DNA from: Candidatus Taylorbacteria bacterium RIFCSPHIGHO2_01_FULL_46_22b
GTDB taxonomy: Bacteria; Patescibacteriota; Minisyncoccia; Phycocordibacterales; DSPV01
Length of the DNA stretch: 64,000 bases
Assembly (NCBI GenBank): GCA_001820875.1
Contig: MHRF01000007.1
Coordinates: forward strand, 140,479 to 204,478
Direction of reading: 5' to 3'
The stretch's first letter is position 1. Each line of letters opens with the position of its first letter. The notes below the pieces were generated by a model that was not told the DNA's origin, did no database searches, and saw nothing but the letters and a program-made list of their open reading frames with translations. Positions 5,250 to 63,505 of this stretch are shown in pieces. Position numbers and translations under genes: made by a program.

Positions 5250-5840
5250 ATGGATTATAAAATTATAATCAGCGTTATTTCTGTTGCTCTCGTATTCATT
5301 GGGTACGGTTGGTATATCAGAGACATCTTACAAAAGAAGACCACTCCCCACGCTTTTACTTTTTTGGGGTGGTCGCTTGCAAGTTCAATTGCATGGGCAC
5401 TTCAAGTGTATGGAGGAGCAGGTGTTGGCGCATGGATAACTTTCTGGGTAACTGCCGTTTGTATATTCATCTTCTTTCTTTCTCTCAAATACGGAGAAAA
5501 AAACATCACTACCTTAGATGTTATGTTTTTGTTACTAGCTCTATCTTCCCTTTTTCTTTGGATAGTTGTAGATCAACCAGTGTGGTCAGTAATATTGGTT
5601 GTGCTCACTGACGTATTGAGTTTCGGGCCGACTTTGAGAAAGTCATGGAACAAACCACACTCGGAGACACTTTTTACTTGGTGGGTTGCGGCATTCAGAC
5701 ACGGATTTGGGATCCTTGCGTTGCAGAAGTTTAACATCCTCACGCTTCTCTATCCGATAGCGTGGACAGCGGCCAATGTTTTATTTTGTTTAATCTTGAT
5801 TGTTAGGCGCAAACAGATTAAACAGGTCCCATTAGTATGA
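5250..5840 (+). CDS. polytopic membrane protein, hypothetical
   Basis: 6 hydrophobic segments. No recognisable motif. Confidence 0.5.
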   Translation: MDYKIIISVISVALVFIGYGWYIRDILQKKTTPHAFTFLGWSLASSIAWALQVYGGAGVGAWITFWVTAVCIFIFFLSLKYGEKNITTLDVMFLLLALSSLFLWIVVDQPVWSVILVVLTDVLSFGPTLRKSWNKPHSETLFTWWVAAFRHGFGILALQKFNILTLLYPIAWTAANVLFCLILIVRRKQIKQVPLV

Positions 5841-28940: not shown

Positions 28941-29687
28941 CTAATGGCTATCTGCCCTCGTGAAAGAGGAGAAGGCAACCATGGCGAGGACGCCAAATAT
29001 AGCGGCTTGAATGAGGCCAACGAAGAGCTCAAGTCCAAGGAACGGTATAGTCGCGATATAGGGGACGAGAGATCCAATAATGATGAGCAATACTTCGCCT
29101 GCAAAAACGTTTCCGAACAATCGGAACGAAAGCGAGATGACTTTTGACAGTTCCCCAATAATTTCGAGTATGCCAGTGAAGAAGAGCACAGGTCCTTTGA
29201 AGGTGATGAATTTGCCAAGATGATGTCGGACACCGACGGTGATGAGTCCGTAGACATGAGAGAGCACCACGACGATGAGTGCGAGTGCAAGTGTCATGTT
29301 CAGATCGGAATATACCGATCGGAAGAGGGGAACGAATGCTTCGTGTCCGTCGTGTCCCACGGTGTGCATGCCGATAGAGCCAACACCGGGGAGAATCCCG
29401 AGCCAGTTTGAGGCGAGGACGAAGAGGAAGATGGTTGCAACGATCGGGAAGAATCGCTCGGCGGTTTTACGATCGCCGGCGATGGTTTCAAGGAAGCCTA
29501 TAATAATTTCAATAACGGCTTCTGCGAAGTTCTGCAGTTTACTCGGGATGTAGCTGACGCGTCTTGAGATGATGAACGCAAATATGATGAATCCGAGCGA
29601 GACAATCCATGCCGTGAGCATCGTGTTAGTCACGGGCAATGGTCCGATGTGAAAGAGAGTGTCTGCTACTATTGATATGTGGTCCAT
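28941..29687 (-). CDS. atpB: F0F1 ATP synthase subunit a
   Basis: LSFRLFGNVFAGEVLL with the conserved Arg. The ORF could extend to 29795, but a plus-strand promoter lies in that extension. Confidence 0.8.
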   Translation of the reverse strand: MDHISIVADTLFHIGPLPVTNTMLTAWIVSLGFIIFAFIISRRVSYIPSKLQNFAEAVIEIIIGFLETIAGDRKTAERFFPIVATIFLFVLASNWLGILPGVGSIGMHTVGHDGHEAFVPLFRSVYSDLNMTLALALIVVVLSHVYGLITVGVRHHLGKFITFKGPVLFFTGILEIIGELSKVISLSFRLFGNVFAGEVLLIIIGSLVPYIATIPFLGLELFVGLIQAAIFGVLAMVAFSSFTRADSH

Positions 29688-29743
29688 GTAGGCCGATATG
29701 GTAGCGTATTTTTCCGTTTTTTGCCAGTCTTCCGATTGGTTGC

Positions 29744-29771
29744 TTGACAGAATGAATTTTACGAGTATACT
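29744..29771 (+). promoter_or_regulatory. sigma70-like promoter (TTGACA-16-TATACT)
   Basis: TTGACA at 29744-29749, TATACT at 29766-29771. Confidence 0.5.
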
Positions 29772-29777
29772 CTTGTG

Positions 29778-30051
29778 CAGTATTGAAAACAGCAATGTCT
29801 ACCGCTTTGGTCCTCTGCACTGCAGAGGGTTGGGCCTTGGCGAGTCTCCCTTCGGGCGAGACAGGACGATTCTTGCAAATCTCAACAGAGAGGCGTGAGA
29901 ATCCGGCATCCTCCGTAATCATAGGAAAACCGATGTCTTCTCGAAAGAGAGCCATGAGTCGGTATGAGGTCTGCTTTTTGAGCAGATAGAGCAAGGTGGC
30001 ACCGCGGAAATGAATCCCGCCCTTGTTGCACAATTTTTTGTGCATCGAGGG
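29778..30051 (+). ncRNA. candidate small RNA of unknown family (about 270 nt) between a canonical promoter and a hairpin terminator
   Basis: The promoter above. Terminator aatcccgccc-(26-nt loop with an internal hairpin)-gggcgggatt followed by TTTTT at 30003-30051. Only a low-complexity 68-aa ORF lies inside. Confidence 0.35.
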
Positions 30052-30104
30052 CGGGATTTTTACGTGTCCGCTTTTCAACTCTAAACCTCAAACCAAGGAG
30101 CTTT

Positions 30105-30314
30105 ATGACAGTCTCACGGAGGACGTATTTCTGTCCGCTCTGTCGCAAGTTTACTCGTTTGTCTCTTCCGACCGAGATTCGGTCTTGTGAACACTGCAAG
30201 GCATCCTTGATTCCTCCGTATGCGGAGGATGATTTCAAGGATACAGACGATCCAGAGGTAATTCGCCGTTGGGTTGCTCTGACCAAGACTCGGCACTTTG
30301 GATTACGCAGGTAA
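30105..30314 (+). CDS. small zinc-ribbon protein (CxxC...CxxC)
   Basis: CPLC...CEHC pairs. Lies in a GC-elevated island. Confidence 0.3.
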   Translation: MTVSRRTYFCPLCRKFTRLSLPTEIRSCEHCKASLIPPYAEDDFKDTDDPEVIRRWVALTKTRHFGLRR

Positions 30315-30367
30315 GCTTTCTTCATGTTCTTTAACAAAAACAAACAACCTTCAACCCAAGGATTTGT

Positions 30368-31165
30368 GTGAACACACAGACCAAAGAAAACAGGTTGTCG
30401 GCAGTCGACCTGAGAATGAAAGAAAACAATCTGCCGGTGATCAATTGGGAGCGAATTGAGAGATCTCTTCGTCAACAGACACGTGCAAGTGGGCAAGAGG
30501 ATGCATGTCCTGCGTTGCTCGGCACACTTCGATCAATCGTTTCTTGTTGTGGGAGTTTTACTGCCAGCAGGAAGAAATTGCTTGCCATCGGTAAGGCACT
30601 GTTGAATCCGGACAAGAAGATTGTTTGTCCGATTTGCCTCGATCCGAGCGATCTTTTAGTGCCAAACACGGTGCCAGAGCTTGTGAGAGAACATGAACGT
30701 TTTCTGGAGAGTATCAGCGACGCGTTTGGCAATCCGCCGGTGATGATGCTGGTTCCGACACATGACAATGTCTCGACGAGAAAAGAGACGCTCGAGCTTG
30801 TTCAGACCATTCACAGGCATGTGCAATCGAGAGGATGGCAAGCTCTGCCTATGGAAGATGTTTTCTCCAGCGTCCACGAGCGTGAGCATTTTTGGATGCA
30901 GACGCTTGGAGATACGGAGGATTCTCGGCGCTGTGTGCGAGCTTTTGCTCGCGCGCGAGCTGCAGCAGGTCTCTATGCGCGGAGAAATCCGGGGGCATCG
31001 GAGACAGAGATTGTTGATCTGGCTCTGCGCACTAGCGCGCAATATTTGGCGCTTGGCGAATTGGTGCGTCAGAACAATTGGTTCATTTGCAATCACACAA
31101 CTCTTAACCTTTCGTGGTACGGGAAAATGGAGGTTGCACTTCTTCACAACCCAATCAAGTTGTGA
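30368..31165 (+). CDS. hypothetical protein (GC-elevated island)
   Basis: 265 aa. CPICLD. No recognisable family. Confidence 0.45.
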   Translation: MNTQTKENRLSAVDLRMKENNLPVINWERIERSLRQQTRASGQEDACPALLGTLRSIVSCCGSFTASRKKLLAIGKALLNPDKKIVCPICLDPSDLLVPNTVPELVREHERFLESISDAFGNPPVMMLVPTHDNVSTRKETLELVQTIHRHVQSRGWQALPMEDVFSSVHEREHFWMQTLGDTEDSRRCVRAFARARAAAGLYARRNPGASETEIVDLALRTSAQYLALGELVRQNNWFICNHTTLNLSWYGKMEVALLHNPIKL

Positions 31166-31207
31166 TCAGGACGGCGGCGAGTGTTTTACACTCGCTGCCT
31201 CTTCTTT

Positions 31208-31432
31208 TTATTTTAAAAACTTGGAGACTTTGCGAAAGACAAGATAGGTTGAGGCGACCGCGGCGAGAATGACGCCGGCGACAAGAAGCCATGGGGAAGT
31301 TTCGAAATATCGGTCGGCGTAACGGCCGAGAAGTGCAAACGCAACAAGCGGGATGGCAATTTGCCAGCCGAGCTCGAACGCGAGTCCCCACGGGTTGAAT
31401 TCTTTCTCTTTTTGATCTTGCAGTTCGGGCAT
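31208..31432 (-). CDS. AtpZ/AtpI-like small membrane protein (ATPase_gene1 family)
   Basis: 74 aa. Two TM segments with the WQIAIPLVAFALLGRYADRYF pattern. Lies upstream of the atp operon. Confidence 0.45.
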   Translation of the reverse strand: MPELQDQKEKEFNPWGLAFELGWQIAIPLVAFALLGRYADRYFETSPWLLVAGVILAAVASTYLVFRKVSKFLK

Positions 31433-31471: not shown

Positions 31472-32740
31472 TTAGTGAGTACTTTTTCCAACAATATTTG
31501 AAATAGTTACTGATGCATGACCTGGTGCAAAAGAATCAAGGCGAAAACCTACTACATGGGTCTTATTGTCAGGTCTTGTGCTCGTGGAGAAAAAGAAAGT
31601 TTTATTTTCTGTAGATGTATTCAAAAACCTACCATCTATTTGACCAATACTTTGGCTATCCCAGTATACTGTTAATAATGATTGTGTCACCGAACCATTT
31701 GAGAACGTGGCATCAAAACTTATCCCTTGCCAAGCTAAGGTACTTGTAGGAGTTACGCTAAGTGCTATCCACGTCACTCCTGATTTCACCCCTTCCGTTT
31801 TCGATGAAGAGAGGAGTATTTTTGACCCATCGATTTTTGCAGTCCCTTCCCGATCCAGTACAGCGTCCAAATTTACAGGATATCTCTCTTCAATTGGGTA
31901 GCCGCGTAGGTTTATGTGACACTGGGTTTTTAGGAACTCATCTGAAATCTTGTCACACCAAAATGAATCTTTATTGCTTTCCGCACTATAGTAGAGCGCA
32001 GTATCGGAGGGAACTATTGGAATTTTCCTTACGGAAGAGACAATTTTTCTTAACATAGAATCATCTTCTGGTTGCATGTCGATTCTGAAAAGACGATTTG
32101 GTTGTGGTTTGCCAAATATCGGCTCAGTGGGACGGAGATAGTATATTTGTATTGTACGCCCGCCAGTATTAGTGAAATCGTAGATAATTGCTGGGAGATT
32201 TTGACCCTCAACCGTGTATTTGGTGAAGGTTTCACCAATCCCACGAGATTTAAGACCTTCTGTGGTAGAAGCAACAACAGTCTTTACTTGTTTCTCTAAA
32301 GTATCGAGGTCTCTAGGGACTACAGGGAGTAGTACTACTTGCAAGTATCTTTTTATGGTAGAAGTACCGATATCGGCGATCTCCAAGAGCTTACTGGAAT
32401 AACCAGATTTTTCATACGGTTCCTGTGGAACGATGTAATGTTCTGGGCCTTCCAAATTTTCCTTTGCACTTAAGAAATGATATTCAAGAGGGTAAGAGAT
32501 TTGGAATCCCCACTCAGTGTCGCTATAGGTTTTCCAGTTGTCAGGCACCAGAGATGGAGGAGTATCAGATTGGGTCCTTGTTATTCTATTTTGGTTATAC
32601 AAAAAATAGACACCTAGAATTATTCCTATAGTTATCAACAAAGATATTGAGACTAAAACTAACTGTTGGGAAGATTTCTTCGTTGGTAATGAAGCAAGAG
32701 GTTCCCGAATTTCCCCTTGAATTTCCGGATCTGTTTCCAT
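31472..32740 (-). CDS. secreted hypothetical protein with a C-terminal domain shared with the divergent neighbour
   Basis: Start set to the internal ATG (METDPE...) just before the TM/signal anchor. C-terminal about 90 aa (ISFDATFSNGSVTQSLLTVYWDSQSIGQIDG...VVGFRLDSF) is homologous to the C-terminus of 32910..35255. Confidence 0.6.
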   Translation of the reverse strand: METDPEIQGEIREPLASLPTKKSSQQLVLVSISLLITIGIILGVYFLYNQNRITRTQSDTPPSLVPDNWKTYSDTEWGFQISYPLEYHFLSAKENLEGPEHYIVPQEPYEKSGYSSKLLEIADIGTSTIKRYLQVVLLPVVPRDLDTLEKQVKTVVASTTEGLKSRGIGETFTKYTVEGQNLPAIIYDFTNTGGRTIQIYYLRPTEPIFGKPQPNRLFRIDMQPEDDSMLRKIVSSVRKIPIVPSDTALYYSAESNKDSFWCDKISDEFLKTQCHINLRGYPIEERYPVNLDAVLDREGTAKIDGSKILLSSSKTEGVKSGVTWIALSVTPTSTLAWQGISFDATFSNGSVTQSLLTVYWDSQSIGQIDGRFLNTSTENKTFFFSTSTRPDNKTHVVGFRLDSFAPGHASVTISNIVGKSTH

Positions 32741-32909
32741 AGTGATCTCTTTATTATACATTGAACCGAGAGCATAGAATAACAGGAACATAACATCATT
32801 CTTTGAATGTAAACCGTTTTGGCGGTATCGTTTATTGTAGGGAAATCTATTCGAGTGAATGGATTTCAGAACAAGGAGAACAGAGAACATTTACAACCGA
32901 ATACACTGT

Positions 32910-35255
32910 ATGAAAAACACACTGACCATTAGTATTGCAACTCTCGTTGGAGTGTTGCTTTCCGACACGCGGCACATCGTCGCACAATCAGTTACACCAG
33001 TACCGAACATGATTTGGATCAACTCTGGAACGTTTGTGATGGGAAGTCCGTTGAACGAGGAAGGTCACACTATTTATGAAGAGCAACAAACTCGCGTTAC
33101 GCTGACGTACGGCTTCTACATGAATAAATTCGAGGCCACACAGCAGGAGTATCTCGATTTAACAGGTCTCAATCCAAGCACTACTACCAATCTCGATGCG
33201 CCGGTCACCAAGACTTCGTGGAATGGCGCAGTGAATTACTGCTTCTTGTTGACAGAGCGAGAACGTAGTGCAGGACGTATCCCAAGCAATTGGGAATATC
33301 GTTTGCCGACTGATGCCGAGTGGGAATATTGCTGTCGTGCGGGGACAACCACGCGATACAGCTTTGGCGACGATCCGACCTACACACTCATCAATCAGTA
33401 CGAGTGGTACATTGGGAATACCGGAACTAACGGACTTTTTCCGCGTTCCGTGGGAATTAAATTGCCCAATCGGTGGGGTCTCTATGACATGCAGGGGAAT
33501 GTTTCGGAGTACGCCCTAGACTGGTTTATAGACAATCCTTTCAGAGGAAGTCTTCCGGGCGGATCTCTTGTTGATTCGCATGGGCCCACAACTGGAGTTT
33601 GGCGCGTGTTTCGTGGAGGATCCTTTTTTGAAGGGGTCTCATCTTGTCGAGCGGCAGTACGAGGAGGTATTTCGCCGACTAGCACTTCAGGTTTGATTGG
33701 TTTTCGGGTTGTGCTTGCGCCGGCTACGCCTGAATGGAGACAGGTGATTGAGACGCAACTCGAAAGACCGAAGTATAGTTCGGGTCCAGTTAAGGAAGTT
33801 GGGAAGAGCAAATTGGTGTTGGTGACGCATGGGTGGATTCCTTCGTGGGATATACCTCAATTATCAACGGCATGGGTTGACGAGATGACAAACAGCATTG
33901 ATCGATATCTAACAGATAAGGGTCTGGACGGATGGCAAGTGGTTGGATACAAGTGGATTGAGGGAGCACATCCTTTGGACTTACTTTCTATTGCTTTTCC
34001 CACTCGTGCTGCCCAAACAGCGCTCGAAAATGCCAAGAGAGAAGGAAGAAAACTAGGGGAGTATCTTGCTGGGCAGGGGTGGAGTGAAATACATTTCATC
34101 GCACACAGTGCAGGCTCTGGACTCATCCAAGCTGCAACGGAAGCAATCAAGGATATTTCTCCTAGCACAATTGTTCATGTTACCTTTCTTGATCCGTTCG
34201 TGGGACTCGACTACTCGGGTGTCAGTAGTTATGGCAACAGGGCAGACTGGGCAGAAAATTACTACAGCAGGGATCTGGATACTGGAGGTGAGAATTGGCC
34301 GTTTACACAGGGACTTTTCGATTACTGCTACAATATCGAAGTCACTTGGGTTGATGACAACAAGATCCTCGGACCTGTTTACATCAGCACTCCGTTGGGG
34401 ACACAGAGGTGCACCCAAACGGTGTCTTCTCACGGATGGCCAATTCAGTTCTACCAAAACACGATACCGCCCAATACCCAGCTAGGTTCTGCAGGTTTTG
34501 GTTTTCCGCTAAGCAGGGCGGGTGGGAACTGGGACTATGCCATCAGTAACTACATGGTTAGTCCCAATGCGCTCTGGGTGCTCGGGACACCAGATGATCC
34601 GCAGTGCAACCAGCTCTACACAAGCACCCCGCCTATGATTGGTGAAAGGGTAGACTTCAGTAATTCACCGATCGAAAAGAGTTCAACTGGAGAGGTGAAA
34701 ATTCACGGAATAGATTCCTTCTCTCTAATCACTGGTTCACCTGTGTGGCTTGCAGCAGTCATCAACCCCACTAATTCGGTCAACCTCGTATCTTTTGATG
34801 CGAAGTTTGTGAACGCCAACGGATCCGAAGGGTTGTTGTCCTTGTACTGGGATACCAATAGCATTGGGTCTGTGGATGAGCCGGCTATCCAACTAGGATT
34901 CAAGCGCTACGCATTCATGTTTCCTCGCGCGGCAAGTAATACCTTGCACATACTTGGATTTCGTCTCGATGCGTTCACGAATGTACCCTCTAGTGTGTTG
35001 GTGACAAACGTGTCGCTTGTGTCCATGGGAGTGTCAGAACCGTTCACGCTTTCGTTTGCGGGAGTGTACACGAATATGTTACCAATCTTCGAGCTCACTG
35101 GACCAACCGGTGTTGTGTATACCATTGAGACCAGTTCGAATCTTGTTGATTGGACAACATCAGTTGTCCTTGTGAACAATAGTGGAAAAGTCAGGTTTTC
35201 GGATCTGGCATCAACAAACGCCCTGCAGAGGTTTTATCGTGCGGTTGCGCCTTGA
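32910..35255 (+). CDS. secreted multidomain protein: FGE-sulfatase (SUMF1-like) domain + alpha/beta-hydrolase (lipase-like) + shared C-terminal beta domain
   Basis: Signal peptide MKNTLTISIATLVGVLL. FGE motifs MIWINSGTFVMGSP...WEYCCRAG...RWGLYDMQGNVSEY...FRGGSF. Lipase-like LVLVTHGW and FIAHSAGSG (GHSxG-type). C-terminal LLSLYWDTNSIGSVDE...ILGFRLDAF. Confidence 0.7.
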   Translation: MKNTLTISIATLVGVLLSDTRHIVAQSVTPVPNMIWINSGTFVMGSPLNEEGHTIYEEQQTRVTLTYGFYMNKFEATQQEYLDLTGLNPSTTTNLDAPVTKTSWNGAVNYCFLLTERERSAGRIPSNWEYRLPTDAEWEYCCRAGTTTRYSFGDDPTYTLINQYEWYIGNTGTNGLFPRSVGIKLPNRWGLYDMQGNVSEYALDWFIDNPFRGSLPGGSLVDSHGPTTGVWRVFRGGSFFEGVSSCRAAVRGGISPTSTSGLIGFRVVLAPATPEWRQVIETQLERPKYSSGPVKEVGKSKLVLVTHGWIPSWDIPQLSTAWVDEMTNSIDRYLTDKGLDGWQVVGYKWIEGAHPLDLLSIAFPTRAAQTALENAKREGRKLGEYLAGQGWSEIHFIAHSAGSGLIQAATEAIKDISPSTIVHVTFLDPFVGLDYSGVSSYGNRADWAENYYSRDLDTGGENWPFTQGLFDYCYNIEVTWVDDNKILGPVYISTPLGTQRCTQTVSSHGWPIQFYQNTIPPNTQLGSAGFGFPLSRAGGNWDYAISNYMVSPNALWVLGTPDDPQCNQLYTSTPPMIGERVDFSNSPIEKSSTGEVKIHGIDSFSLITGSPVWLAAVINPTNSVNLVSFDAKFVNANGSEGLLSLYWDTNSIGSVDEPAIQLGFKRYAFMFPRAASNTLHILGFRLDAFTNVPSSVLVTNVSLVSMGVSEPFTLSFAGVYTNMLPIFELTGPTGVVYTIETSSNLVDWTTSVVLVNNSGKVRFSDLASTNALQRFYRAVAP

Positions 35256-35272: not shown

Positions 35273-35306
35273 AGCTCGCTACACTTGTGGCGGGCTCTTT
35301 CTTTTT
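35273..35306. terminator. bidirectional terminator between convergent genes
   Basis: gagctcgc-(loop)-gcgggctc with a G.U pair, followed by tttcttttt. Confidence 0.55.
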
Positions 35307-35581
35307 ACTAATTTACCGTATACCGATCCTAGTCCTGTCCCTATGATAATTGCAACGAGGAAAAGAATAATTTGTTGAGCTTGCAACGGCAGATTCATGT
35401 TTATTCCCAAGATAGCGTAAGGAAGACCAAGCAACCAAATAACAGGCCACATGGGTACGGTTAATGGCCAGAGGATTAAAGCAGAATCTTGTCCAAGTAG
35501 TTGAACGAATATGAAAGGGACGTAGAAAATTAAACTTATTACACCGCCTTTCACCCAATGTGGCCACTTGCTGGAATTCAT
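35279..35581 (-). CDS. small membrane protein, paralog A (M.SKWP.W..GGVI family)
   Basis: 100 aa, 3 TM segments. N-terminus MNSSKWPHWVKGGVI. Confidence 0.5.
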   Translation of the reverse strand: MNSSKWPHWVKGGVISLIFYVPFIFVQLLGQDSALILWPLTVPMWPVIWLLGLPYAILGINMNLPLQAQQIILFLVAIIIGTGLGSVYGKLVKRKSPPQV

Positions 35582-35586
35582 GTTAG

Positions 35587-35877
35587 CTACTGTGCAAACT
35601 TTATTTTTTTGATCCTATCAATGAAAATACCAATTATTGAACCGATTAGAAAACTCAATAAAAGACTAATAAGAGTTATCGAAAAGAGAGGAGGGTAGTT
35701 ATTGAGAATTGGAAGAACAGAAAGAAAGATACCAGAAAAAATCATTGGACTTATATTAATACAAAGAAATCCTCCTACAAATAGATAGCACAGTAAAGGA
35801 GGAATATCCAAGATAACGCCAATTATAGTTCCTATTACTCCTCCTCTTAACCAGTATGGCCACTTGCTAAATTTCAT
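35587..35877 (-). CDS. small membrane protein, paralog B
   Basis: 96 aa. N-terminus MKFSKWPYWLRGGVI, homologous to the downstream neighbour. Confidence 0.5.
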   Translation of the reverse strand: MKFSKWPYWLRGGVIGTIIGVILDIPPLLCYLFVGGFLCINISPMIFSGIFLSVLPILNNYPPLFSITLISLLLSFLIGSIIGIFIDRIKKIKFAQ

Positions 35878-35997
35878 AATGGTTTTATTGTACTCCCTTT
35901 AAGAGAAGTGTTATACACAGTAAACAGGTTTGAGACTAAAACCCAGTTTAAGAGGTTTTTTCTGGTATGATATAAGGTATATCCTAGGATTACTATC

Positions 35998-36474
35998 TTG
36001 AAAAGACATATTGTAGTTACTAAAGGCATTGGAAAAGCCAACACAGAGCTTTCAGCTTTTGATAAGGCTCTTATTGATGCTGGGATTGCCGATCATAATC
36101 TCATTCATTTGTCGTCAATCATTCCTCCGAAATCAGAAATAAGAAAAGAGAAGTATGAATTAAAGGCAGAGGAATTTGGTAATAAATTATATGTTGTTAT
36201 CGCAGAAATGAGAGAAAGTAGAGTAAGTAAAAAGGCGTGTGCAGGTCTTGGGTGGGTGTTATCAGAAGACGGAAGTCAAAAAGGCCTTTTTGTAGAACAT
36301 GAAGGGGAGAGTGAGGAAGAAGTCCAAGGTTTAATTGAAAAGAGTTTGTCAGAGATGAAGAAAAATCGTGCTGATAATTTTGGTCCTGTGCAGTCTGAAA
36401 TAGCGAGTATTTTGTGCGAAAGTTCTCCGGTGTGTGCTGTAGTAGCAGCTGTGTATAAGAGTGAAGCTTGGTAG
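35998..36474 (+). CDS. pdaD: pyruvoyl-dependent arginine decarboxylase (PdaD-like)
   Basis: IVVTKGIGKANTELSAFDKALIDAGIADHNLIHLSSIIPP matches PvlArgDC, including the Ser-Ser self-cleavage site. Confidence 0.65.
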   Translation: MKRHIVVTKGIGKANTELSAFDKALIDAGIADHNLIHLSSIIPPKSEIRKEKYELKAEEFGNKLYVVIAEMRESRVSKKACAGLGWVLSEDGSQKGLFVEHEGESEEEVQGLIEKSLSEMKKNRADNFGPVQSEIASILCESSPVCAVVAAVYKSEAW

Positions 36475-36480
36475 TAAGAT

Positions 36481-37404
36481 ATGGATACATTCATTAATCA
36501 TGTTTGGAACATAAGCAACTCGCTTTCCAGCGAGTACAACCTTGATGTTCAATGGTTTTTTGTTATCTATCTGATTTCATTTGCCCCCTTCTATTTTGGC
36601 TATTTTTTGATGGCTTATGGAACCACACGCAATCTCAAATTTACTGATCTGATACACTTACGGTTTCGGCATAAACTCCAGTGGCACTCCTATTCAAACT
36701 GGGGCTTGTTCATACATCTATTCGGTCGAGTGATGCCCTATGTATATATTTTAATTATTGGCAGGAATTTACCTCTTTGGGTTTATTTTCTGATTGTCAG
36801 TATTATCGGATTTTCTGTCGGATACCTTTTATATAAAATCTTGCAAAAGGGGAATCGTAGTGAAACCAAAAATGATTTTTCTGTAATAAAAAAGGATAAT
36901 ATTTCTGATCCTGTCGAGATTGAGACAATATGGGAGATTTATAACCATACATTTGAGAAAGTAAATCGCTTAAGTCCTTGCCGACAGAGTTTTGATCATG
37001 ATCATTTCGTTGAAGCACTTCGGGATTCAACGATACATAAATATCTTTTGCAATCAACAGTTGATGGCACGGTTGGAATTGGTCTTATAACTAATGACTT
37101 TAAGAATGCACCGTGGATTAGCAGTGATTATTTCAAGGCTCATTTTCCAGAAGCGTTTGCAAAAAACACAATTTATTATTTTCTTGGACTGGCTATAAAA
37201 GAGCATTTTAGGGCTAGACGCTTATCTCTCTTATTGATTGAAGATATTATTGATGAAATTCCCCATGATGCTATTATGGGTTTTGACCACTCGAGAAATA
37301 TAAATCCGCTTCTCCATCATTTTACAAAAGTGGTTCGTCAGGCACGCTCACTCATGAGAACTCACATAGACAGGCAACATTACCATATTGTGCAACGCAA
37401 ATGA
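36481..37404 (+). CDS. membrane protein, hypothetical
   Basis: 3-4 N-terminal TM segments plus a soluble C-terminal domain. Confidence 0.5.
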   Translation: MDTFINHVWNISNSLSSEYNLDVQWFFVIYLISFAPFYFGYFLMAYGTTRNLKFTDLIHLRFRHKLQWHSYSNWGLFIHLFGRVMPYVYILIIGRNLPLWVYFLIVSIIGFSVGYLLYKILQKGNRSETKNDFSVIKKDNISDPVEIETIWEIYNHTFEKVNRLSPCRQSFDHDHFVEALRDSTIHKYLLQSTVDGTVGIGLITNDFKNAPWISSDYFKAHFPEAFAKNTIYYFLGLAIKEHFRARRLSLLLIEDIIDEIPHDAIMGFDHSRNINPLLHHFTKVVRQARSLMRTHIDRQHYHIVQRK

Positions 37405-39038
37405 CGTTTTCTATCTTCAATATTTTTTCGATTATGACACTTGGCTTGTCACTATTACTGGCATCCTATGTGTACGAAAACAACAAGAATAGTAAAGTGA
37501 ACAGGACGTTCTTGTTCTTGATTTTCAGCTCTATGTTTTGGATCTTTGCCAATTTTATGACTGATTTGGCATCGGATTTATTTTCGATATTACTGTGGAG
37601 TAAGTTGACCCTGATAGGACCTATCGGTATCGGCTACTTTTTTTATCGAATGTCGATTTTTTTTCCGAAAGAGAAAAAGGTTAATAAATTGTATGGGGTG
37701 TTTGCTCTCTTGGGCGGGCTGCTCTTACTAGCATTTGTTCCAACGAGATTTAATATTCTTAGTGTTTTTATAGGAGAAAATAATATCCCTGCAATTATTC
37801 CGGGCCCTTTGTACTTTTTCTTTCTCCTATATTTTCTGACAGTCCTTTTACTTTCATTTGTAAACTTATTTCGTGGGTATAAAACTCTTAATCATCTCGA
37901 AAGGCTTCAAATATCTTATATCTCTCTAGGAGTTGGTTTGTCAGCTTTGTTTGGGAGCATTACTAACTTGGTGTTGCCGTTGCTAGGTTATTCAGAATTT
38001 GTTAATTTTGGGCCGTATTTTATTCTTATTTTTATTTTCTTTAGTTCGTACGCGATCATTAAATATAAACTCTTTGATATCAAGATTCTTACGACTCAAC
38101 TGCTTGTATTCTCTCTTTCCATCTTTATTTTCTTAAGGGCTCTCCTAGGGGATTCTCTGCAAGAGAAGATAATAAACGGAGTGCTATTTGTTCTTGTTGC
38201 AGTTGTGGGATATTTTCTTATTAAGAGCGTGTTTCGCGAAGTGGAGCAGCGAGAGAAGATTGAGACATTGGCGAAGGATTTGGAGGAGACGAATGATCGG
38301 CAGGAGAAATTGATTCACTTTATCGGACATGAGGTGAAAGGGTATCTGACAAAAGGCGAATACGCGTTTTCGGAAATGGTGGAAGGGGACTATGGAGAGC
38401 TCTCACCTGACGTGAAGGTGCTCTCAACCACTGCGCTTGCTGAATTGCGCAAGGGGGTGGCGTCGGTGACGGATATTTTGAAAGCGGCGAACCTGAAGCG
38501 CGGGACGGTGGCATATGAATTGAAACCGACTGATTTGAAAGGAATCGTTGAGGAGGGAATTATTAAATTGAAACCTTCGGCAGAAGAGAAAGGGCTTAAG
38601 CTTCTAACTGCGGTAAGTGAAGGGGAATGCATGGTGAATCTTGATCGTACACAGTTTGGTGAGCATGTGATCAGGAATTTGATAGACAACTCGATTAAAT
38701 ACACGCCGACAGGAAGCGTAACCGTTGGACTCTCTGTGAAGGATGGGAAGGCTATATTTAGCGTGAAAGATACTGGTGTGGGAATCACGGAAGAAGACAA
38801 AGCACGTCTCTTTACCGAGGGCGGCCGCGGGAAGGATTCGCTCAAAGTAAACGTGCATTCAACCGGATATGGCCTCTATATCGCCAAACAACTGGTCTTG
38901 GCTCATGGCGGGAGAATTTGGGTAGAGTCTGAAGGTTCGGGGAAGGGATCAACATTTTTGGTGGAATTACCTCTGACGTCTTCTGTTCCAGTTTCTGTTG
39001 CAACTGCACCGGTCATGCCTCCTGCGCCGCAGGCATAA
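37401..39038 (+). CDS. sensor histidine kinase with polytopic (7TM-like) N-terminal sensor domain
   Basis: H-box LIHFIGHEVKGYL. N/G boxes NLIDNSIKYT...GYGLGLYIAKQLVLAHGGRIWVES. Confidence 0.8.
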   Translation: MTFSIFNIFSIMTLGLSLLLASYVYENNKNSKVNRTFLFLIFSSMFWIFANFMTDLASDLFSILLWSKLTLIGPIGIGYFFYRMSIFFPKEKKVNKLYGVFALLGGLLLLAFVPTRFNILSVFIGENNIPAIIPGPLYFFFLLYFLTVLLLSFVNLFRGYKTLNHLERLQISYISLGVGLSALFGSITNLVLPLLGYSEFVNFGPYFILIFIFFSSYAIIKYKLFDIKILTTQLLVFSLSIFIFLRALLGDSLQEKIINGVLFVLVAVVGYFLIKSVFREVEQREKIETLAKDLEETNDRQEKLIHFIGHEVKGYLTKGEYAFSEMVEGDYGELSPDVKVLSTTALAELRKGVASVTDILKAANLKRGTVAYELKPTDLKGIVEEGIIKLKPSAEEKGLKLLTAVSEGECMVNLDRTQFGEHVIRNLIDNSIKYTPTGSVTVGLSVKDGKAIFSVKDTGVGITEEDKARLFTEGGRGKDSLKVNVHSTGYGLYIAKQLVLAHGGRIWVESEGSGKGSTFLVELPLTSSVPVSVATAPVMPPAPQA

Positions 39039-63149: not shown

Positions 63150-63505
63150 ATTTGTACCTTGTGCCTATAAGCCGAGTTCTGTATCTGTCTTGCGACAGAC
63201 GATAGCCATTTATCTAGGATGTGTGTTGCCACACATCTCAAGCGGCACTCTCCGCCAAAGGCGGAGCACGGCCTTGCAACCAAGTAAGGATTTTGCCGTT
63301 TCACTCTCTTTATTACTAAAGAGCTCGCCCGATCTTTCGATAGGGTGGTTTTCCCCTTTCGGAAAAAACCGTCTCTGTTCGCACCTCGTAGGTTTCCCTA
63401 GACGGGCGTTACCCGTTACCCGTTTATTACATCTTTCGATGCAATGGTAGCTCGGACTTTCCTCACCTCTGCTTACGCAGGGCGCGACTATCCGGCACAG
63501 GGTTG
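63150..63505 (-). ncRNA. rnpB: RNase P RNA (bacterial type A-like, compact)
   Basis: Reverse complement contains GAGGAAAGTCCGAGCTACC (P4 5' strand), GGTAACGCCCGTCTAGGGAAACCTACGAGGTGCGAACAGAGACGG (matches E. coli GGUAACGCCUGGG...GGAAACCCACGACCAGUGCAACAGAGAGCAAACCGCC), and ACAGAACTCGGCTTAT (P4 3' strand, with compensatory changes against the 5' strand). Ends in a 27-bp hairpin. Confidence 0.75.

What the first reader, a model, noticed from the sequence alone, without database searches (positions are those of the whole stretch)
29800..31200. GC-elevated island inserted between the atpZ-like gene and atpB carrying a zinc-ribbon mini-protein and an unknown 265-aa protein
The atpZ/atpI-like gene (31208..31432, -) is normally immediately upstream of atpB. 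Here it is separated from it by about 1.4 kb of plus-strand DNA at roughly 50-52% GC, against about 43-47% locally. That DNA encodes a CPLC...CEHC zinc-ribbon peptide (30105..30314) and an uncharacterised 265-aa protein (30368..31165). The island also includes a promoter/terminator-bounded candidate small RNA at 29778-30051. The placement and composition suggest an inserted accessory cassette of unknown function, possibly a toxin-antitoxin or defence module.
Basis: partly seen in the sequence, partly recalled or inferred. Interest (0 to 1): 0.6.

Follow-up and report, generated by a model that had tools for sequence, protein, structure and literature searches.

The report
Tryptophan T-box switch driving unknown enzyme
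The DNA wedged between two ATP-synthase genes is not a defence island: it is a tRNA-sensing RNA switch (a tryptophan T-box) that turns on a tiny zinc-ribbon ORF and a member of an unannotated enzyme-like protein family, a family that candidate-phyla bacteria consistently place under tryptophan-starvation control.

Summary
The ORFs and the 1.5-kb gap between atpB and atpZ are real. The GC "elevation" is not local: the island is 0.50, the atp operon 0.49 and atpZ 0.52.

The "candidate small RNA" (29778-30066, +) is a T-box leader that falls below Rfam's threshold. It has a UGG (Trp) specifier, a UGGC acceptor-binding bulge and a -42 kcal/mol terminator. Nine related leaders support its helices by covariation.

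It controls an orphan zinc-ribbon ORF and the 265-aa gene. That gene belongs to a family of about 260 aa (114 clusters at 50% identity) with no Pfam or NCBIfam match, seen so far only in Patescibacteria. In 19 of 44 homologous loci the gene follows a Trp-Trp leader-peptide attenuator, and in 7 a Trp T-box. It often sits beside trpR, upstream of trpS, and in front of a histidine-phosphatase-like partner.

The predicted fold resembles PvcA/IsnA isonitrile synthases, cyclodipeptide synthases and TyrRS/TrpRS.

Close relatives show a variable atpZ-atpB junction: no insert, or the same T-box with other cargo.

There is no support for a toxin-antitoxin or defence role. The biochemical function is unknown; it is probably tied to tryptophan or tRNA-Trp supply.

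The parts
29744..29771 (+). sigma-70-like promoter, TTGACA-16 nt-TATACT. It predicts a transcript start near 29778.
   Evidence: 11 of 12 consensus matches. This is a consensus match only. Comparable TTGACA...TAnnnT sites precede the leaders of L001, L002, L007, L016, L055 and L057 (by eye).
29778..30066 (+). T-box riboswitch leader specific for tRNA-Trp (whole element)
   Evidence: Rfam RF00230 match at 29786-30027: 32.3 bits (gathering score 93), E 2.8e-5 locally and 2e-3 for the whole window. The same element lies upstream of homologous genes in L001, L002, L003, L009, L012, L016 and L023, and at the same junction in L055 and L057. Covariation is shown.
29802..29842 (+). Reduced Stem I. Lower helix 29802-29811 pairs with 29834-29842; short apical hairpin at 29812-29828; 3' bulge GUUGG at 29829-29833 carrying the specifier UGG (29831-29833), followed by G29834.
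   Evidence: The minimum-free-energy fold shows the 5-nt bulge. UGG followed by G is invariant in 7 of 7 aligned leaders, while the lower helix covaries (G-C / U-A / A-U and so on). The same bulge is seen in L055 and L057.
29868..29903 (+). Stem II (GAUUCU / AGAAUC) with an inserted mini-hairpin
   Evidence: helix 1: 6 pairs, 100% paired in 7 sequences, 5 pairs with compensatory changes. Fold.
29904..29926 (+). Stem IIA/B pseudoknot with F-box-like CCGUAA. CGG 29904-06 pairs with CCG 29913-15; UCCU 29909-12 pairs with AGGA 29923-26.
   Evidence: helices 2 and 3: 100% paired and mostly invariant. Rfam aligns it to the T-box 'CGG......CCGUUA' element.
29930..29962 (+). Helix after the pseudoknot (CCGA 29930-33 pairs with UCGG 29959-62), enclosing a variable hairpin
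   Evidence: helix 4: all 4 pairs show compensatory changes (CCGA/UCGG, UUGA/UCAA, UCAA/UUGA, UUGG/CCAA, UUAA/UUAA).
29993..30025 (+). T-box sequence AAGGUGGCACCGCGG (29993-30007) and antiterminator. The 7-nt bulge UGGCACC lies at 29997-30003; its UGGC would pair with the 3'-GCCA end of uncharged tRNA-Trp.
   Evidence: Sequence read. The fold of 29985-30030 gives helix, 7-nt bulge, helix. UGGC occurs in most leaders and UGGU in L012 and L009. That C/U mix is typical of Trp T-boxes, whose tRNA has G73 (TBDB paper PMC7778990).
30013..30062 (+). Intrinsic terminator. Arms 30013-30025 and 30046-30058, an inner hairpin, and a U-run at 30057-30061. Its 5' arm is shared with the antiterminator.
   Evidence: -42 kcal/mol, z = -7.0, 0 of 200 shuffles reach this value. 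helix 5: 13 pairs, 10 with compensatory changes.
30105..30314 (+). 69-aa Cys4 zinc-ribbon ORF (CPLC-x14-CEHC), the first ORF after the switch. Whether it is translated is uncertain.
   Evidence: SD AAGGAG at 30095-30100. No homologue apart from an identical copy. Codon score -0.025, like shadow ORFs. Absent from L001, L002 and L003. Positional analogue: in L057 a 98-aa Cys-rich double-zinc-ribbon ORF is the only cargo of the same T-box.
30368..31165 (+). 265-aa protein of an unannotated family ('family A') with a PvcA/IsnA-, CDPS- and TyrRS-like Rossmann fold
   Evidence: Conserved motifs: C90, H109, E173, R197, Y203, RTSAQYLALG (221-230), CNHTTLNLSWY (241-251), LHNP (259-262).
31173..31209 (+). 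Intrinsic terminator that ends the plus-strand unit, convergent with atpZ
   Evidence: 12-bp stem with 8 G-C pairs, then TCTTCTTTTT.
28941..29687 (-). atpB (flank). First gene of the atpBEFHAG... run on the minus strand.
   Evidence: PF00119.
31208..31432 (-). atpZ/atpI-like gene (flank)
   Evidence: PF09527, E 3.4e-15.

Best explanation
The segment is one plus-strand transcription unit lying antisense between atpB and atpZ. Its parts, in order, are a promoter, a tRNA-Trp-sensing T-box leader, a small zinc-ribbon ORF, the 265-aa gene and a terminator.

Mechanism. This follows the established T-box model; the elements are shown here, the binding is inferred.
1. When tRNA-Trp is mostly uncharged, its anticodon CCA pairs with the UGG specifier bulged out of a shortened Stem I.
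2. Stem II and the IIA/B pseudoknot support this contact.
3. The free 3'-GCCA end of the tRNA pairs with UGGC in the 7-nt T-box bulge.
4. This stabilises the antiterminator and prevents the strong terminator (30013-30062) from forming, so RNA polymerase reads into the ORFs.
5. Charged Trp-tRNA cannot make the acceptor-end contact, and transcription stops at about 30062.

The 265-aa product. It belongs to an unannotated family of about 260 aa that Patescibacteria place under tryptophan-starvation control. The control takes several forms: Trp T-boxes, Trp-Trp leader-peptide attenuators, and adjacency to trpR. The gene is often co-transcribed with a histidine-phosphatase-like partner and with trpS.

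Inferred function. The predicted fold is the Rossmann-type catalytic fold of PvcA/IsnA isonitrile synthases, cyclodipeptide synthases and TyrRS/TrpRS. In all of these enzymes the pocket holds an aromatic amino acid or aminoacyl group. From this I infer that the protein is a tryptophan- or tRNA-Trp-directed enzyme whose job is to help restore Trp-tRNA-Trp, by salvaging or providing tryptophan or by protecting the charging step. The chemistry is unknown.
For: The T-box:
- Rfam hits at the same relative position in six loci.
- The canonical antiterminator with the UGGCACC bulge, and a terminator of -42 kcal/mol with z = -7.
- 30 pairs are 96% paired, 20 of them with compensatory changes; 0 of 500 shuffles reach this, and slid controls give 38-62%.
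- The Stem I helix covaries around an invariant UGG followed by G (also L055 and L057).
- The UGGC/UGGU mix matches what TBDB reports for Trp T-boxes with a G73 tRNA.

The tryptophan regulon:
- 19 of 44 homologous loci carry an upstream WW or WWW leader ORF, against 4 of 138 control genes (Fisher p = 2e-10).
- All 19 leaders checked (17 of those loci, duplicates set aside, plus L008 and L011) have a terminator-like hairpin with a U-run.
- There is a weak Rfam Trp_leader hit in L007.
- trpR (PF01371) is adjacent in 8 loci, and TrpRS (PF00579, E 5e-73) lies downstream in 4.
- A partner, family B, follows in 36 loci.

The gene is real and its fold is predicted with confidence:
- 114 representative clusters.
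- AF2 pLDDT 86 for the window protein and 96 for a canonical member.
- Foldseek hits: PvcA/PIsnA at E 7e-5 to 3e-4, CDPS at 6e-4, TyrRS and TrpRS at about 1e-3 to 1e-2.

Placement is shared with L001, where AtpB is 69% and family A 50% identical.
Against: - The Rfam score (32 bits) is far below the gathering score (93).
- Stem I lacks the K-turn and the distal platform of canonical T-boxes, so tRNA binding is assumed, not shown.
- No tRNA-Trp gene from these genomes was available to check G73 and the anticodon.
- Nothing tested here shows that the protein binds tryptophan.
- Fold similarity is modest (TM 0.41-0.54).
- There is no sequence-level link to any family. The only hint is a weak local resemblance to a TrpRS helix (E 0.25; 4% hhalign probability).
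- The window's clade lacks partner B, and two segments conserved in the rest of the family are absent.
- An enzyme resembling Trp-consuming enzymes (IsnA, CDPS) being induced by Trp shortage is not obviously logical.
Confidence: 0.8

Rival explanations
1. Resistance or detoxification module. Family A, with phospho-transfer partners in other genomes, inactivates a TrpRS inhibitor or a tryptophan antimetabolite. Induction by uncharged tRNA-Trp would then be the alarm for such poisoning, as with antibiotic-resistant auxiliary trpS genes that are controlled by attenuation.
For: The same T-box type drives a PPDK_N/PEP-utilizers kinase-like protein plus an LMW phosphatase in L055. APH-family kinases neighbour family A in 6 loci, and the partner B is histidine-phosphatase-like. 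Co-transcription with trpS occurs in 4 loci. The cargo at the junction is variable and cassette-like.
Against: No known resistance family matches. trpR adjacency and WW attenuators are the classical signature of tryptophan supply genes. Family B lacks the catalytic RHG motif. There is no direct evidence for any inhibitor.
Confidence: 0.2
2. Trp-consuming specialised-metabolite enzyme (isonitrile-, formyl- or cyclodipeptide-type chemistry on Trp or Trp-tRNA). Under starvation it would make a signal or effector, for example one aimed at the host cell.
For: The closest folds are PvcA/IsnA and CDPS. An invariant Cys directly after strand beta1 could be an acyl-enzyme nucleophile, as a serine is in CDPS; the structural correspondence is from memory and was not tested residue by residue.
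Against: Induction when Trp-tRNA is scarce contradicts a Trp-consuming role. No tailoring or export genes recur nearby. No Pfam CDPS or DIT1_PvcA match appears even at E = 10.
Confidence: 0.12
3. Non-catalytic factor: a tRNA-Trp, TrpRS or TrpR-binding regulator or chaperone built on an aaRS-like scaffold. The zinc-ribbon ORF would play an anti-TRAP-like regulatory role.
For: In B. subtilis a small zinc protein (anti-TRAP) is the product of a Trp T-box operon (PMC10327191). L057 has a T-box followed by only a zinc-ribbon ORF. The HIGH and KMSKS motifs are absent.
Against: The pattern of invariant polar residues (C, H, E, R, Y, N, H) across 70 sequences looks like an active site. No TRAP homologue is known here. 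The zinc-ribbon ORF has no CxxCxGxG motif.
Confidence: 0.1
4. One reading: a horizontally inserted toxin-antitoxin or anti-phage defence cassette with its own small RNA.
For: Content at the atpZ-atpB junction varies among relatives. There is a small Cys-rich ORF next to a larger unknown ORF. Tetranucleotide usage is mildly atypical (96th percentile).
Against: There are no PADLOC hits and no Pfam toxin or antitoxin domain. The 'sRNA' is a T-box leader. The family sits in Trp-regulated operons with trpS and trpR in dozens of genomes. GC content equals that of the flanking atp genes.
Confidence: 0.03
5. The leader is a decayed or differently specific T-box, or merely a terminator-containing UTR, so regulation by tRNA-Trp does not occur in this genome.
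For: The Rfam score is below threshold. Stem I is atypical. About 300 nt, instead of 40-60 nt, separate the terminator from the family A gene.
Against: All core elements are intact and covary across nine leaders. UGG is invariant. Independent Trp sensors sit in front of the homologues.
Confidence: 0.05

Closest known systems
T-box riboswitches (Rfam RF00230). The nearest examples are the Trp-specific ones (B. subtilis trpS, rtpA-ycbK) and the short-Stem-I class typified by actinobacterial ileS.
   Same: A specifier codon followed by a purine on the 3' side of Stem I; Stem II; the IIA/B pseudoknot with an F-box-like CCGUAA; the T-box sequence with a 7-nt UGGNACC bulge; mutually exclusive antiterminator and terminator; and the C/U choice at UGGN that is typical of Trp T-boxes.
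   Different: The score is one third of Rfam's threshold. Stem I is a 7-10-bp helix with a pure 3' bulge and a short variable cap; no K-turn, AG bulge or distal T-loop platform is recognisable. An extra covarying helix follows the pseudoknot. The host is a Patescibacteria lineage, and I found no open-access paper reporting T-boxes there. The regulated genes are of unknown function.
trp-type leader-peptide transcription attenuators (Rfam RF00513 Trp_leader; attenuation-controlled auxiliary trpS of Streptomyces, from memory)
   Same: In 19 of 44 homologous loci a 16-28-codon leader ORF with WW or WWW, followed by a terminator, precedes the family A gene. The logic is the same as for the T-box: expression is switched on when Trp-tRNA is scarce.
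   Different: It is not present in the window itself, which uses a T-box instead. The leaders are unrelated in sequence to the enterobacterial trpL.
PvcA/IsnA isonitrile synthases (Pfam PF05141; PDB 3e59, 9dh4, 9dhm)
   Same: They are the best structural match to a canonical family member (E 7e-5 to 3e-4, TM 0.44-0.54) and also match the window protein (E 1.3e-2). These enzymes bind L-Tyr or L-Trp.
   Different: There is no sequence-level match. Family A is about 40 aa shorter. It is induced by Trp shortage, whereas IsnA consumes Trp. No oxygenase partner (PvcB/IsnB type) is nearby.
Cyclodipeptide synthases and class Ic aminoacyl-tRNA synthetases (TyrRS/TrpRS)
   Same: They share the Rossmann-type catalytic fold. 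Family A is similar in size to CDPS. There is a weak local resemblance of RT..AAQYLALG...NHTT.L.W to the TrpRS segment DYHA..T...A.YLA.G...Q..HT.L.W.
   Different: Family A has no HIGH or KMSKS motif and no anticodon-binding domain. It has no Pfam PF16715 or PF00579 match. A canonical TrpRS is encoded next to family A in four loci, so family A is not the organism's TrpRS.
B. subtilis anti-TRAP (rtpA), a small zinc-binding protein expressed from a Trp T-box operon
   Same: A small Cys4 ORF is the first cistron after a Trp T-box (window; L057 has only such an ORF) (PMC10327191).
   Different: There is no CxxCxGxG DnaJ-like motif, no sequence similarity and no TRAP system known in this lineage. 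Translation of the window ORF is unproven.

Membership tests
T-box riboswitch (RF00230) | Reaches Rfam's curated gathering score | tested here: not met
   32.3 bits against 93. The related leaders score 26-37 bits.
T-box riboswitch (RF00230) | Conserved T-box sequence that forms an antiterminator with a 7-nt bulge carrying UGGN | tested here: met
   AAGGUGGCACCGCGG at 29993-30007. The fold gives helix, UGGCACC bulge, helix. The sequence is conserved in 9 leaders.
T-box riboswitch (RF00230) | An intrinsic terminator that competes with the antiterminator by sharing its 3' strand | tested here: met
   The terminator at 30013-30062 folds at -42 kcal/mol with z = -7. 10 of its 13 pairs show compensatory changes. 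Its 5' arm, CCGCCCUU, is the antiterminator's 3' strand.
T-box riboswitch (RF00230) | Stem I specifier loop with a codon followed by a purine, matching the amino-acid class of the regulated genes | tested here: met
   UGG followed by G is invariant in a 3' bulge while the flanking helix covaries. Independent Trp signals (WW leaders, trpR, trpS) occur at homologous loci.
T-box riboswitch (RF00230) | Stem I K-turn (GA motif) and a distal platform (AG bulge plus distal loop) that stacks on the tRNA elbow | tested here: not met
   The cap above the specifier is only 17-29 nt and is not conserved. No GA motif was recognised by eye. This resembles the short-Stem-I class.
T-box riboswitch (RF00230) | Stem II and the Stem IIA/B pseudoknot with an F-box | tested here: met
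   helices 1-3 are 100% paired, and Stem II has 5 of 6 pairs with compensatory changes. CCGUAA aligns to the model's CCGUUA.
T-box riboswitch (RF00230) | Binds uncharged cognate tRNA and causes read-through | not testable with these tools
   This needs in vitro antitermination or binding assays.
Cyclodipeptide synthase (PF16715) | Sequence match to the family profile | tested here: not met
   None of 70 members hits any relevant Pfam model, even at E = 10.
Cyclodipeptide synthase (PF16715) | Class-Ic-aaRS-like Rossmann fold of about 230-260 aa | tested here: met
   Foldseek gives E 6e-4 to 6e-3, probability 1.0 and TM up to 0.55 relative to the target.
Cyclodipeptide synthase (PF16715) | Catalytic Ser after the first strand, with the Tyr/Glu/Tyr set, using aminoacyl-tRNA substrates | tested here: inconclusive
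   An invariant Cys (C90) follows beta1, and E173 and Y203 are conserved. No residue-level structural superposition was available.
Class I aminoacyl-tRNA synthetase (TrpRS/TyrRS, PF00579) | HIGH and KMSKS signature motifs | tested here: not met
   Neither motif appears in the family alignment. Only a conserved KHIxF and a C-terminal LHNP are present.
Class I aminoacyl-tRNA synthetase (TrpRS/TyrRS, PF00579) | Profile match and an anticodon-binding domain | tested here: not met
   There is no Pfam match. hhalign against TrpRS gives 4% probability. The protein ends right after the Rossmann fold. A true TrpRS is encoded alongside it in 4 loci.
PvcA/IsnA isonitrile synthase (PF05141) | Profile match to DIT1_PvcA | tested here: not met
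PvcA/IsnA isonitrile synthase (PF05141) | Overall fold | tested here: met
   They are the top Foldseek hits (3e59, 9dhm, 9dh4) at E 7e-5 to 3e-4 and TM 0.44-0.54.
PvcA/IsnA isonitrile synthase (PF05141) | Conserved residues that bind the amino acid and ribulose-5-phosphate; a partner oxygenase | not tested
   No residue-level superposition tool was available. No oxygenase recurs among the neighbours.
Toxin-antitoxin or anti-phage defence system | Match to a known or candidate defence or toxin protein model | tested here: not met
   PADLOC gives 0 hits for both ORFs. Pfam shows no toxin or antitoxin domain.
Toxin-antitoxin or anti-phage defence system | Conserved two-gene pairing of the small and the large ORF | tested here: not met
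   The zinc-ribbon ORF is absent from L001, L002 and L003 and from 47 metagenomic loci. The recurrent partner is family B, located downstream.
Anti-TRAP (rtpA) | About 53 aa with two CxxCxGxG motifs, acting on TRAP | tested here: not met
   The ORF has CPLC and CEHC only, and no Pfam DnaJ_CXXCXGXG hit. Only the T-box(Trp) context is shared.

The most novel reading that the evidence does not exclude
Family A, together with the histidine-phosphatase-like family B in most genomes, is a previously unrecognised enzymatic route that supplies tryptophan or charged tRNA-Trp in Patescibacteria. These organisms are regarded as amino-acid auxotrophs. The route would be wired to three separate Trp sensors: a T-box, a WW-leader attenuator and TrpR. 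The T-box here would be a new short-Stem-I subclass in a phylum not known for T-boxes.
Probability: 0.3. Interest if true: 0.9.

Novelty: new variant of a known kind. Interest (0 to 1): 0.72.

Why it matters
1. It shows that T-box riboswitches with a stripped-down Stem I operate in candidate-phyla (Patescibacteria) genomes. They are missed there by the standard Rfam threshold, so regulons in these genomes are under-annotated.

2. It gives a strong and testable functional handle on a protein family with no annotation. Three kinds of tryptophan sensor converge on the family, and its fold is that of enzymes that hold aromatic amino acids. Tryptophan is the costliest amino acid, and these bacteria are thought to depend on hosts for it. 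An unknown Trp-starvation enzyme could therefore reveal how ultra-small symbionts cope with Trp limitation or with attacks on TrpRS.

3. It corrects a tempting 'defence island' reading.

Tried and rejected
- **GC island.** Rejected. The flanking atp genes have the same GC content.
- **Free small RNA.** Rejected in favour of a cis-acting leader.
- **First guesses for the specifier.** I considered GAY (Asp) or UGG in the segment before Stem II (RGGAUGR). I abandoned this when more leaders showed that the segment is a Stem II-proximal element, and that the invariant UGG sits in the Stem I bulge.
- **Family A as the organism's TrpRS.** Rejected. It lacks HIGH and KMSKS, and a canonical TrpRS is encoded next to it.
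- **Searches of family A against sequence libraries.** Pfam, NCBIfam, PADLOC and a PDB-sequence profile search found nothing significant.
- **Domain fusions as functional clues.** None were found. The long P0011 is an ORF over-called across a tRNA gene.
- **Partner B or a second copy of A in the window, L001, L002, L008 or L055-L060.** None found.
- **tRNA-Trp genes in the window and loci, to verify G73.** None present.
- **Homologues of the zinc-ribbon ORF.** None. Pairwise similarity to the L057 zinc-ribbon ORF is marginal (E 0.03).
- **Literature.** I found no paper on this family or on T-boxes in Patescibacteria or Saccharibacteria. The IsnA structure papers are not in the library.
Full report
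**What is in the sequence**

The minus strand carries an F-type ATP synthase operon: atpG, atpA, atpH, atpF, atpE and atpB. AtpB matches PF00119 (E 3e-42), and its likely start is the ATG at 29687. An atpZ/atpI-like gene lies at 31208-31432 (PF09527, E 3e-15).

Between atpB and atpZ there are about 1.5 kb whose features all lie on the plus strand:
- a promoter-like TTGACA-16-TATACT at 29744-29771, matching 11 of 12 positions;
- about 290 nt with no ORF;
- a 69-codon CPLC...CEHC ORF at 30105-30314, with the SD sequence AAGGAG;
- a 265-codon ORF at 30368-31165;
- a 12-bp terminator hairpin at 31173-31199 followed by a T-run.

The compositional claim is not. The island is 0.502 GC against a window mean of 0.455. 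The atp operon next to it is 0.493 and atpZ is 0.516, so there is no local step in GC.

**The 'small RNA' is a T-box leader**

A permissive Rfam scan of 29600-30450 gave one credible hit, T-box RF00230 at 29786-30027. It scored 32.3 bits, E 2.8e-5 locally and E 2e-3 for the whole window. That is well below the gathering score of 93, so the default scan missed it.

The hit carries the hallmark sequence AAGGUGGCACCGCGG (29993-30007). Folded alone, 29985-30030 forms the classical antiterminator, with a 7-nt bulge UGGCACC between two helices. When 36 more bases are included, the 3' strand of that structure is captured by a terminator. The terminator folds at -42 kcal/mol (z = -7.0; 0 of 200 shuffles do as well) and is followed by UUUUU.

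**The same leader precedes homologues elsewhere**

Homologues of the 265-aa protein were found in public data, and their contigs were fetched.

The same leader precedes the homologue in:
- L002, in an unrelated genomic context (30.6 bits);
- L016 (36.6 bits), L012 (34.5 bits) and L023 (26.5 bits);
- L001, L003 and L009, recognised by eye.

I aligned seven leaders and counted 30 proposed pairs, covering Stem II, Stem IIA, the IIB pseudoknot, a helix after the pseudoknot, and the terminator. The result was 96.2% paired cells and 20 pairs with compensatory changes. None of 500 shuffles reached this, and sliding the partners by 1-3 columns gave only 38-62% pairing.

**Specificity for tRNA-Trp**

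Stem I is short. It consists of a 7-10-bp helix, a 17-29-nt variable cap, and a 3' bulge that always reads N(0-2)-UGG followed by G. The helix around the bulge covaries: G-C, U-A, A-U and G-U occur at the same positions in different leaders. Two further leaders found later, in L055 and L057, have the same bulge.

UGG is the tryptophan codon. The variable base of the acceptor-binding UGGN is C in most leaders and U in two. The TBDB survey reports that Trp T-boxes split between these two options because tRNA-Trp has G73 (PMC7778990).

No tRNA-Trp gene was present in the window or in any locus, so G73 could not be confirmed for this lineage.

**Independent evidence that the gene family is tryptophan-regulated**

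An exhaustive HMMER search found 114 representative clusters of the family, each about 260 aa. None of them hits Pfam or NCBIfam. A metagenome scan returned 47 loci.

Regulatory signals at these loci:
- In 19 of 44 loci with enough upstream sequence, a 16-28-codon leader ORF containing WW or WWW lies 60-160 nt before the gene. Examples are MSKVNNIKSQAWWGSF... and ...VVWWWTLPL....
- Only 4 of 138 control genes in the same loci have such an ORF (Fisher p = 2e-10).
- All 19 leaders checked (17 of those loci, duplicates set aside, plus L008 and L011) show a hairpin plus U-run between the leader and the gene.
- L007 gives a weak Rfam Trp_leader hit.

Clustering the neighbouring ORFs showed:
- a second family of about 190 aa ('family B') directly downstream in 36 loci. 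It is weakly similar to His_Phos_1, keeps the SPLkR and vSHsFR motifs, and has no RHG;
- a canonical TrpRS (PF00579, E 5e-73) after A-B in 4 loci;
- a Trp repressor (PF01371, E 7e-14) adjacent in 8 loci.

Three different tryptophan sensors therefore converge on this family. The window's clade (window, L001, L002, L003, L004, L008) lacks family B nearby. It also lacks two segments that are conserved elsewhere, CPDYSHxxGxYTF and ADHEAxD.

**What the protein looks like**

AlphaFold models are confident: pLDDT 86 and pTM 0.85 for the window protein with 6 sequences, and pLDDT 96 and pTM 0.92 for the canonical member P0006 with 70 sequences.

Foldseek results against the PDB:
- For the window protein, the top hits are cyclodipeptide synthases, TyrRS and PIsnA (E 6e-3 to 1e-2, TM 0.41-0.49).
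- For P0006, the top hits are PvcA (3e59) and PIsnA (9dhm, 9dh4) at E 7e-5 to 3e-4 and TM 0.44-0.54. CDPS follows at 6e-4, then TyrRS and TrpRS.

All of these are Rossmann-type enzymes whose pocket holds an aromatic amino acid or aminoacyl group.

There is no HIGH or KMSKS motif and no anticodon-binding domain. Conserved residues include an invariant Cys right after strand 1, and also H109, E173, R197, Y203, QY225-226, NHTT242-245, W250 and HNP260-262.

A local resemblance to a TrpRS segment appeared twice, but it is not significant (E 0.25; 4% probability). I treat it as a lead only.

**Is it an insertion?**

Relatives were identified through AtpB. Their source names are Paceibacterota, Taylorbacteria and Parcubacteria; L001 is labelled Saccharibacteria.

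| Locus | AtpB identity | Content between atpZ and atpB |
|---|---|---|
| L056 | 75% | none; the genes are 18 nt apart |
| L058 | 73% | an ArsR-type HTH gene |
| L060 | 69% | an ArsR-type HTH gene |
| L059 | 74% | nothing comparable; no atpZ gene was called |
| L001 | 69% | HTH gene, T-box and family A, in the same orientation as in the window |
| L057 | 73% | the same Trp T-box, followed only by a 98-aa Cys-rich double-zinc-ribbon ORF |
| L055 | 76% | the same Trp T-box in the other orientation, driving a PPDK_N/PEP-utilizers kinase-like protein and an LMW phosphatase |

The junction is therefore a variable spot. The Trp T-box recurs there and its cargo changes. It argues against both a recent private acquisition and a defence role.

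**The zinc-ribbon ORF**

It has a good Shine-Dalgarno sequence and a Cys4 pattern. However, it has no homologue, and its codon-usage score (-0.025) is typical of shadow ORFs (mean -0.04) rather than of real genes (0.19 +/- 0.09). It is absent from L001, L002 and L003.

The L057 arrangement, a T-box followed only by a zinc-ribbon ORF, makes translation plausible. Its similarity to the window ORF is marginal (E 0.03 pairwise, limited to a CEHC knuckle). I leave this ORF as uncertain.

**Verdict**

- Regulation by a tRNA-Trp T-box is well supported by sequence and comparative evidence. It is inferred, not demonstrated.
- Membership of the 265-aa protein in a tryptophan-starvation regulon is well supported.
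- The biochemical role of the protein is unknown. I favour a role that restores Trp-tRNA-Trp, either by supplying or salvaging Trp or by protecting the charging step.
- The alternatives are a detoxifying role, a Trp-consuming metabolite role, and a non-catalytic role.
- A toxin-antitoxin or defence function finds no support.

Noticed in passing
window 31472-32890 (-) and 32859-35255 (+): Two divergently transcribed large genes share a C-terminal domain of about 93 aa (34% identity, E 7e-15) that has no Pfam model. One is a 472-aa protein of unknown function. The other is a 798-aa protein with an FGE-sulfatase/GldK-like N-terminus.
   Followed up: partly
L055 794-3953: The same Trp T-box subtype, at the same atpZ-atpB junction, drives a 755-aa PPDK_N + PEP-utilizers (rifampicin-phosphotransferase-like) protein and an LMW phosphatase instead of family A.
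   Followed up: partly
L057 3289-4000 (minus strand of the locus): A Trp T-box whose only cargo is a 98-aa Cys-rich double-zinc-ribbon ORF (CPWC..CEHC..CPECPSC). It is reminiscent of the T-box-controlled zinc protein anti-TRAP of Bacillus.
   Followed up: partly
36 related loci, e.g. L014 3751-4317, L007 5717-6361: A family of about 190 aa ('family B') directly follows family A. It is weakly His_Phos_1-like and keeps the SPLkR and vSHsFR motifs. It lacks the catalytic RHG motif, so it may not be an active phosphatase.
   Followed up: partly
L057, L055, L058, L001, L060: The ATP synthase operons of these Patescibacteria relatives are repeatedly interrupted. L057 has three genes between atpB and atpE. 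L055 has a DUF4258/DUF2283 pair after atpB. L058 has a NYN-domain gene between atpA and atpG. L001, L058 and L060 have ArsR-type HTH genes between atpZ and atpB.
   Followed up: no
window 63152-63503 (-); 58869-58957 (+): RNase P RNA class A (129 bits) and tRNA-Ser(GGA). These are the only other RNA genes detected in the window.
   Followed up: no
window 35279-35877 (-) and about 35400-38000: A low-GC stretch (0.32-0.38) contains two tandem ORFs of about 96-100 aa that look like paralogous small membrane proteins.
   Followed up: no
window 31173-31209: atpZ (-) and the family A gene (+) converge on one hairpin that has a U-run only on the plus strand. atpZ transcripts may therefore run antisense through the family A gene towards atpB.
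   Followed up: no
P0011 (protein): Its 185-aa N-terminal extension contains GGRDSNPRPPDLESGALPAELHP, which looks like a translated tRNA gene. This points to an over-called ORF and to a tRNA gene just upstream of that homologue.
   Followed up: no
L002 727-774: A perfect 46-nt palindrome scored as the miRNA family mir-5583 on both strands. The family name is spurious; the feature is probably a bidirectional terminator.
   Followed up: no
L001 5108-6133: The public gene call for the homologue P0003 (341 aa) is over-extended by 81 codons through the T-box leader. The true start is the ATG at 5351.
   Followed up: yes
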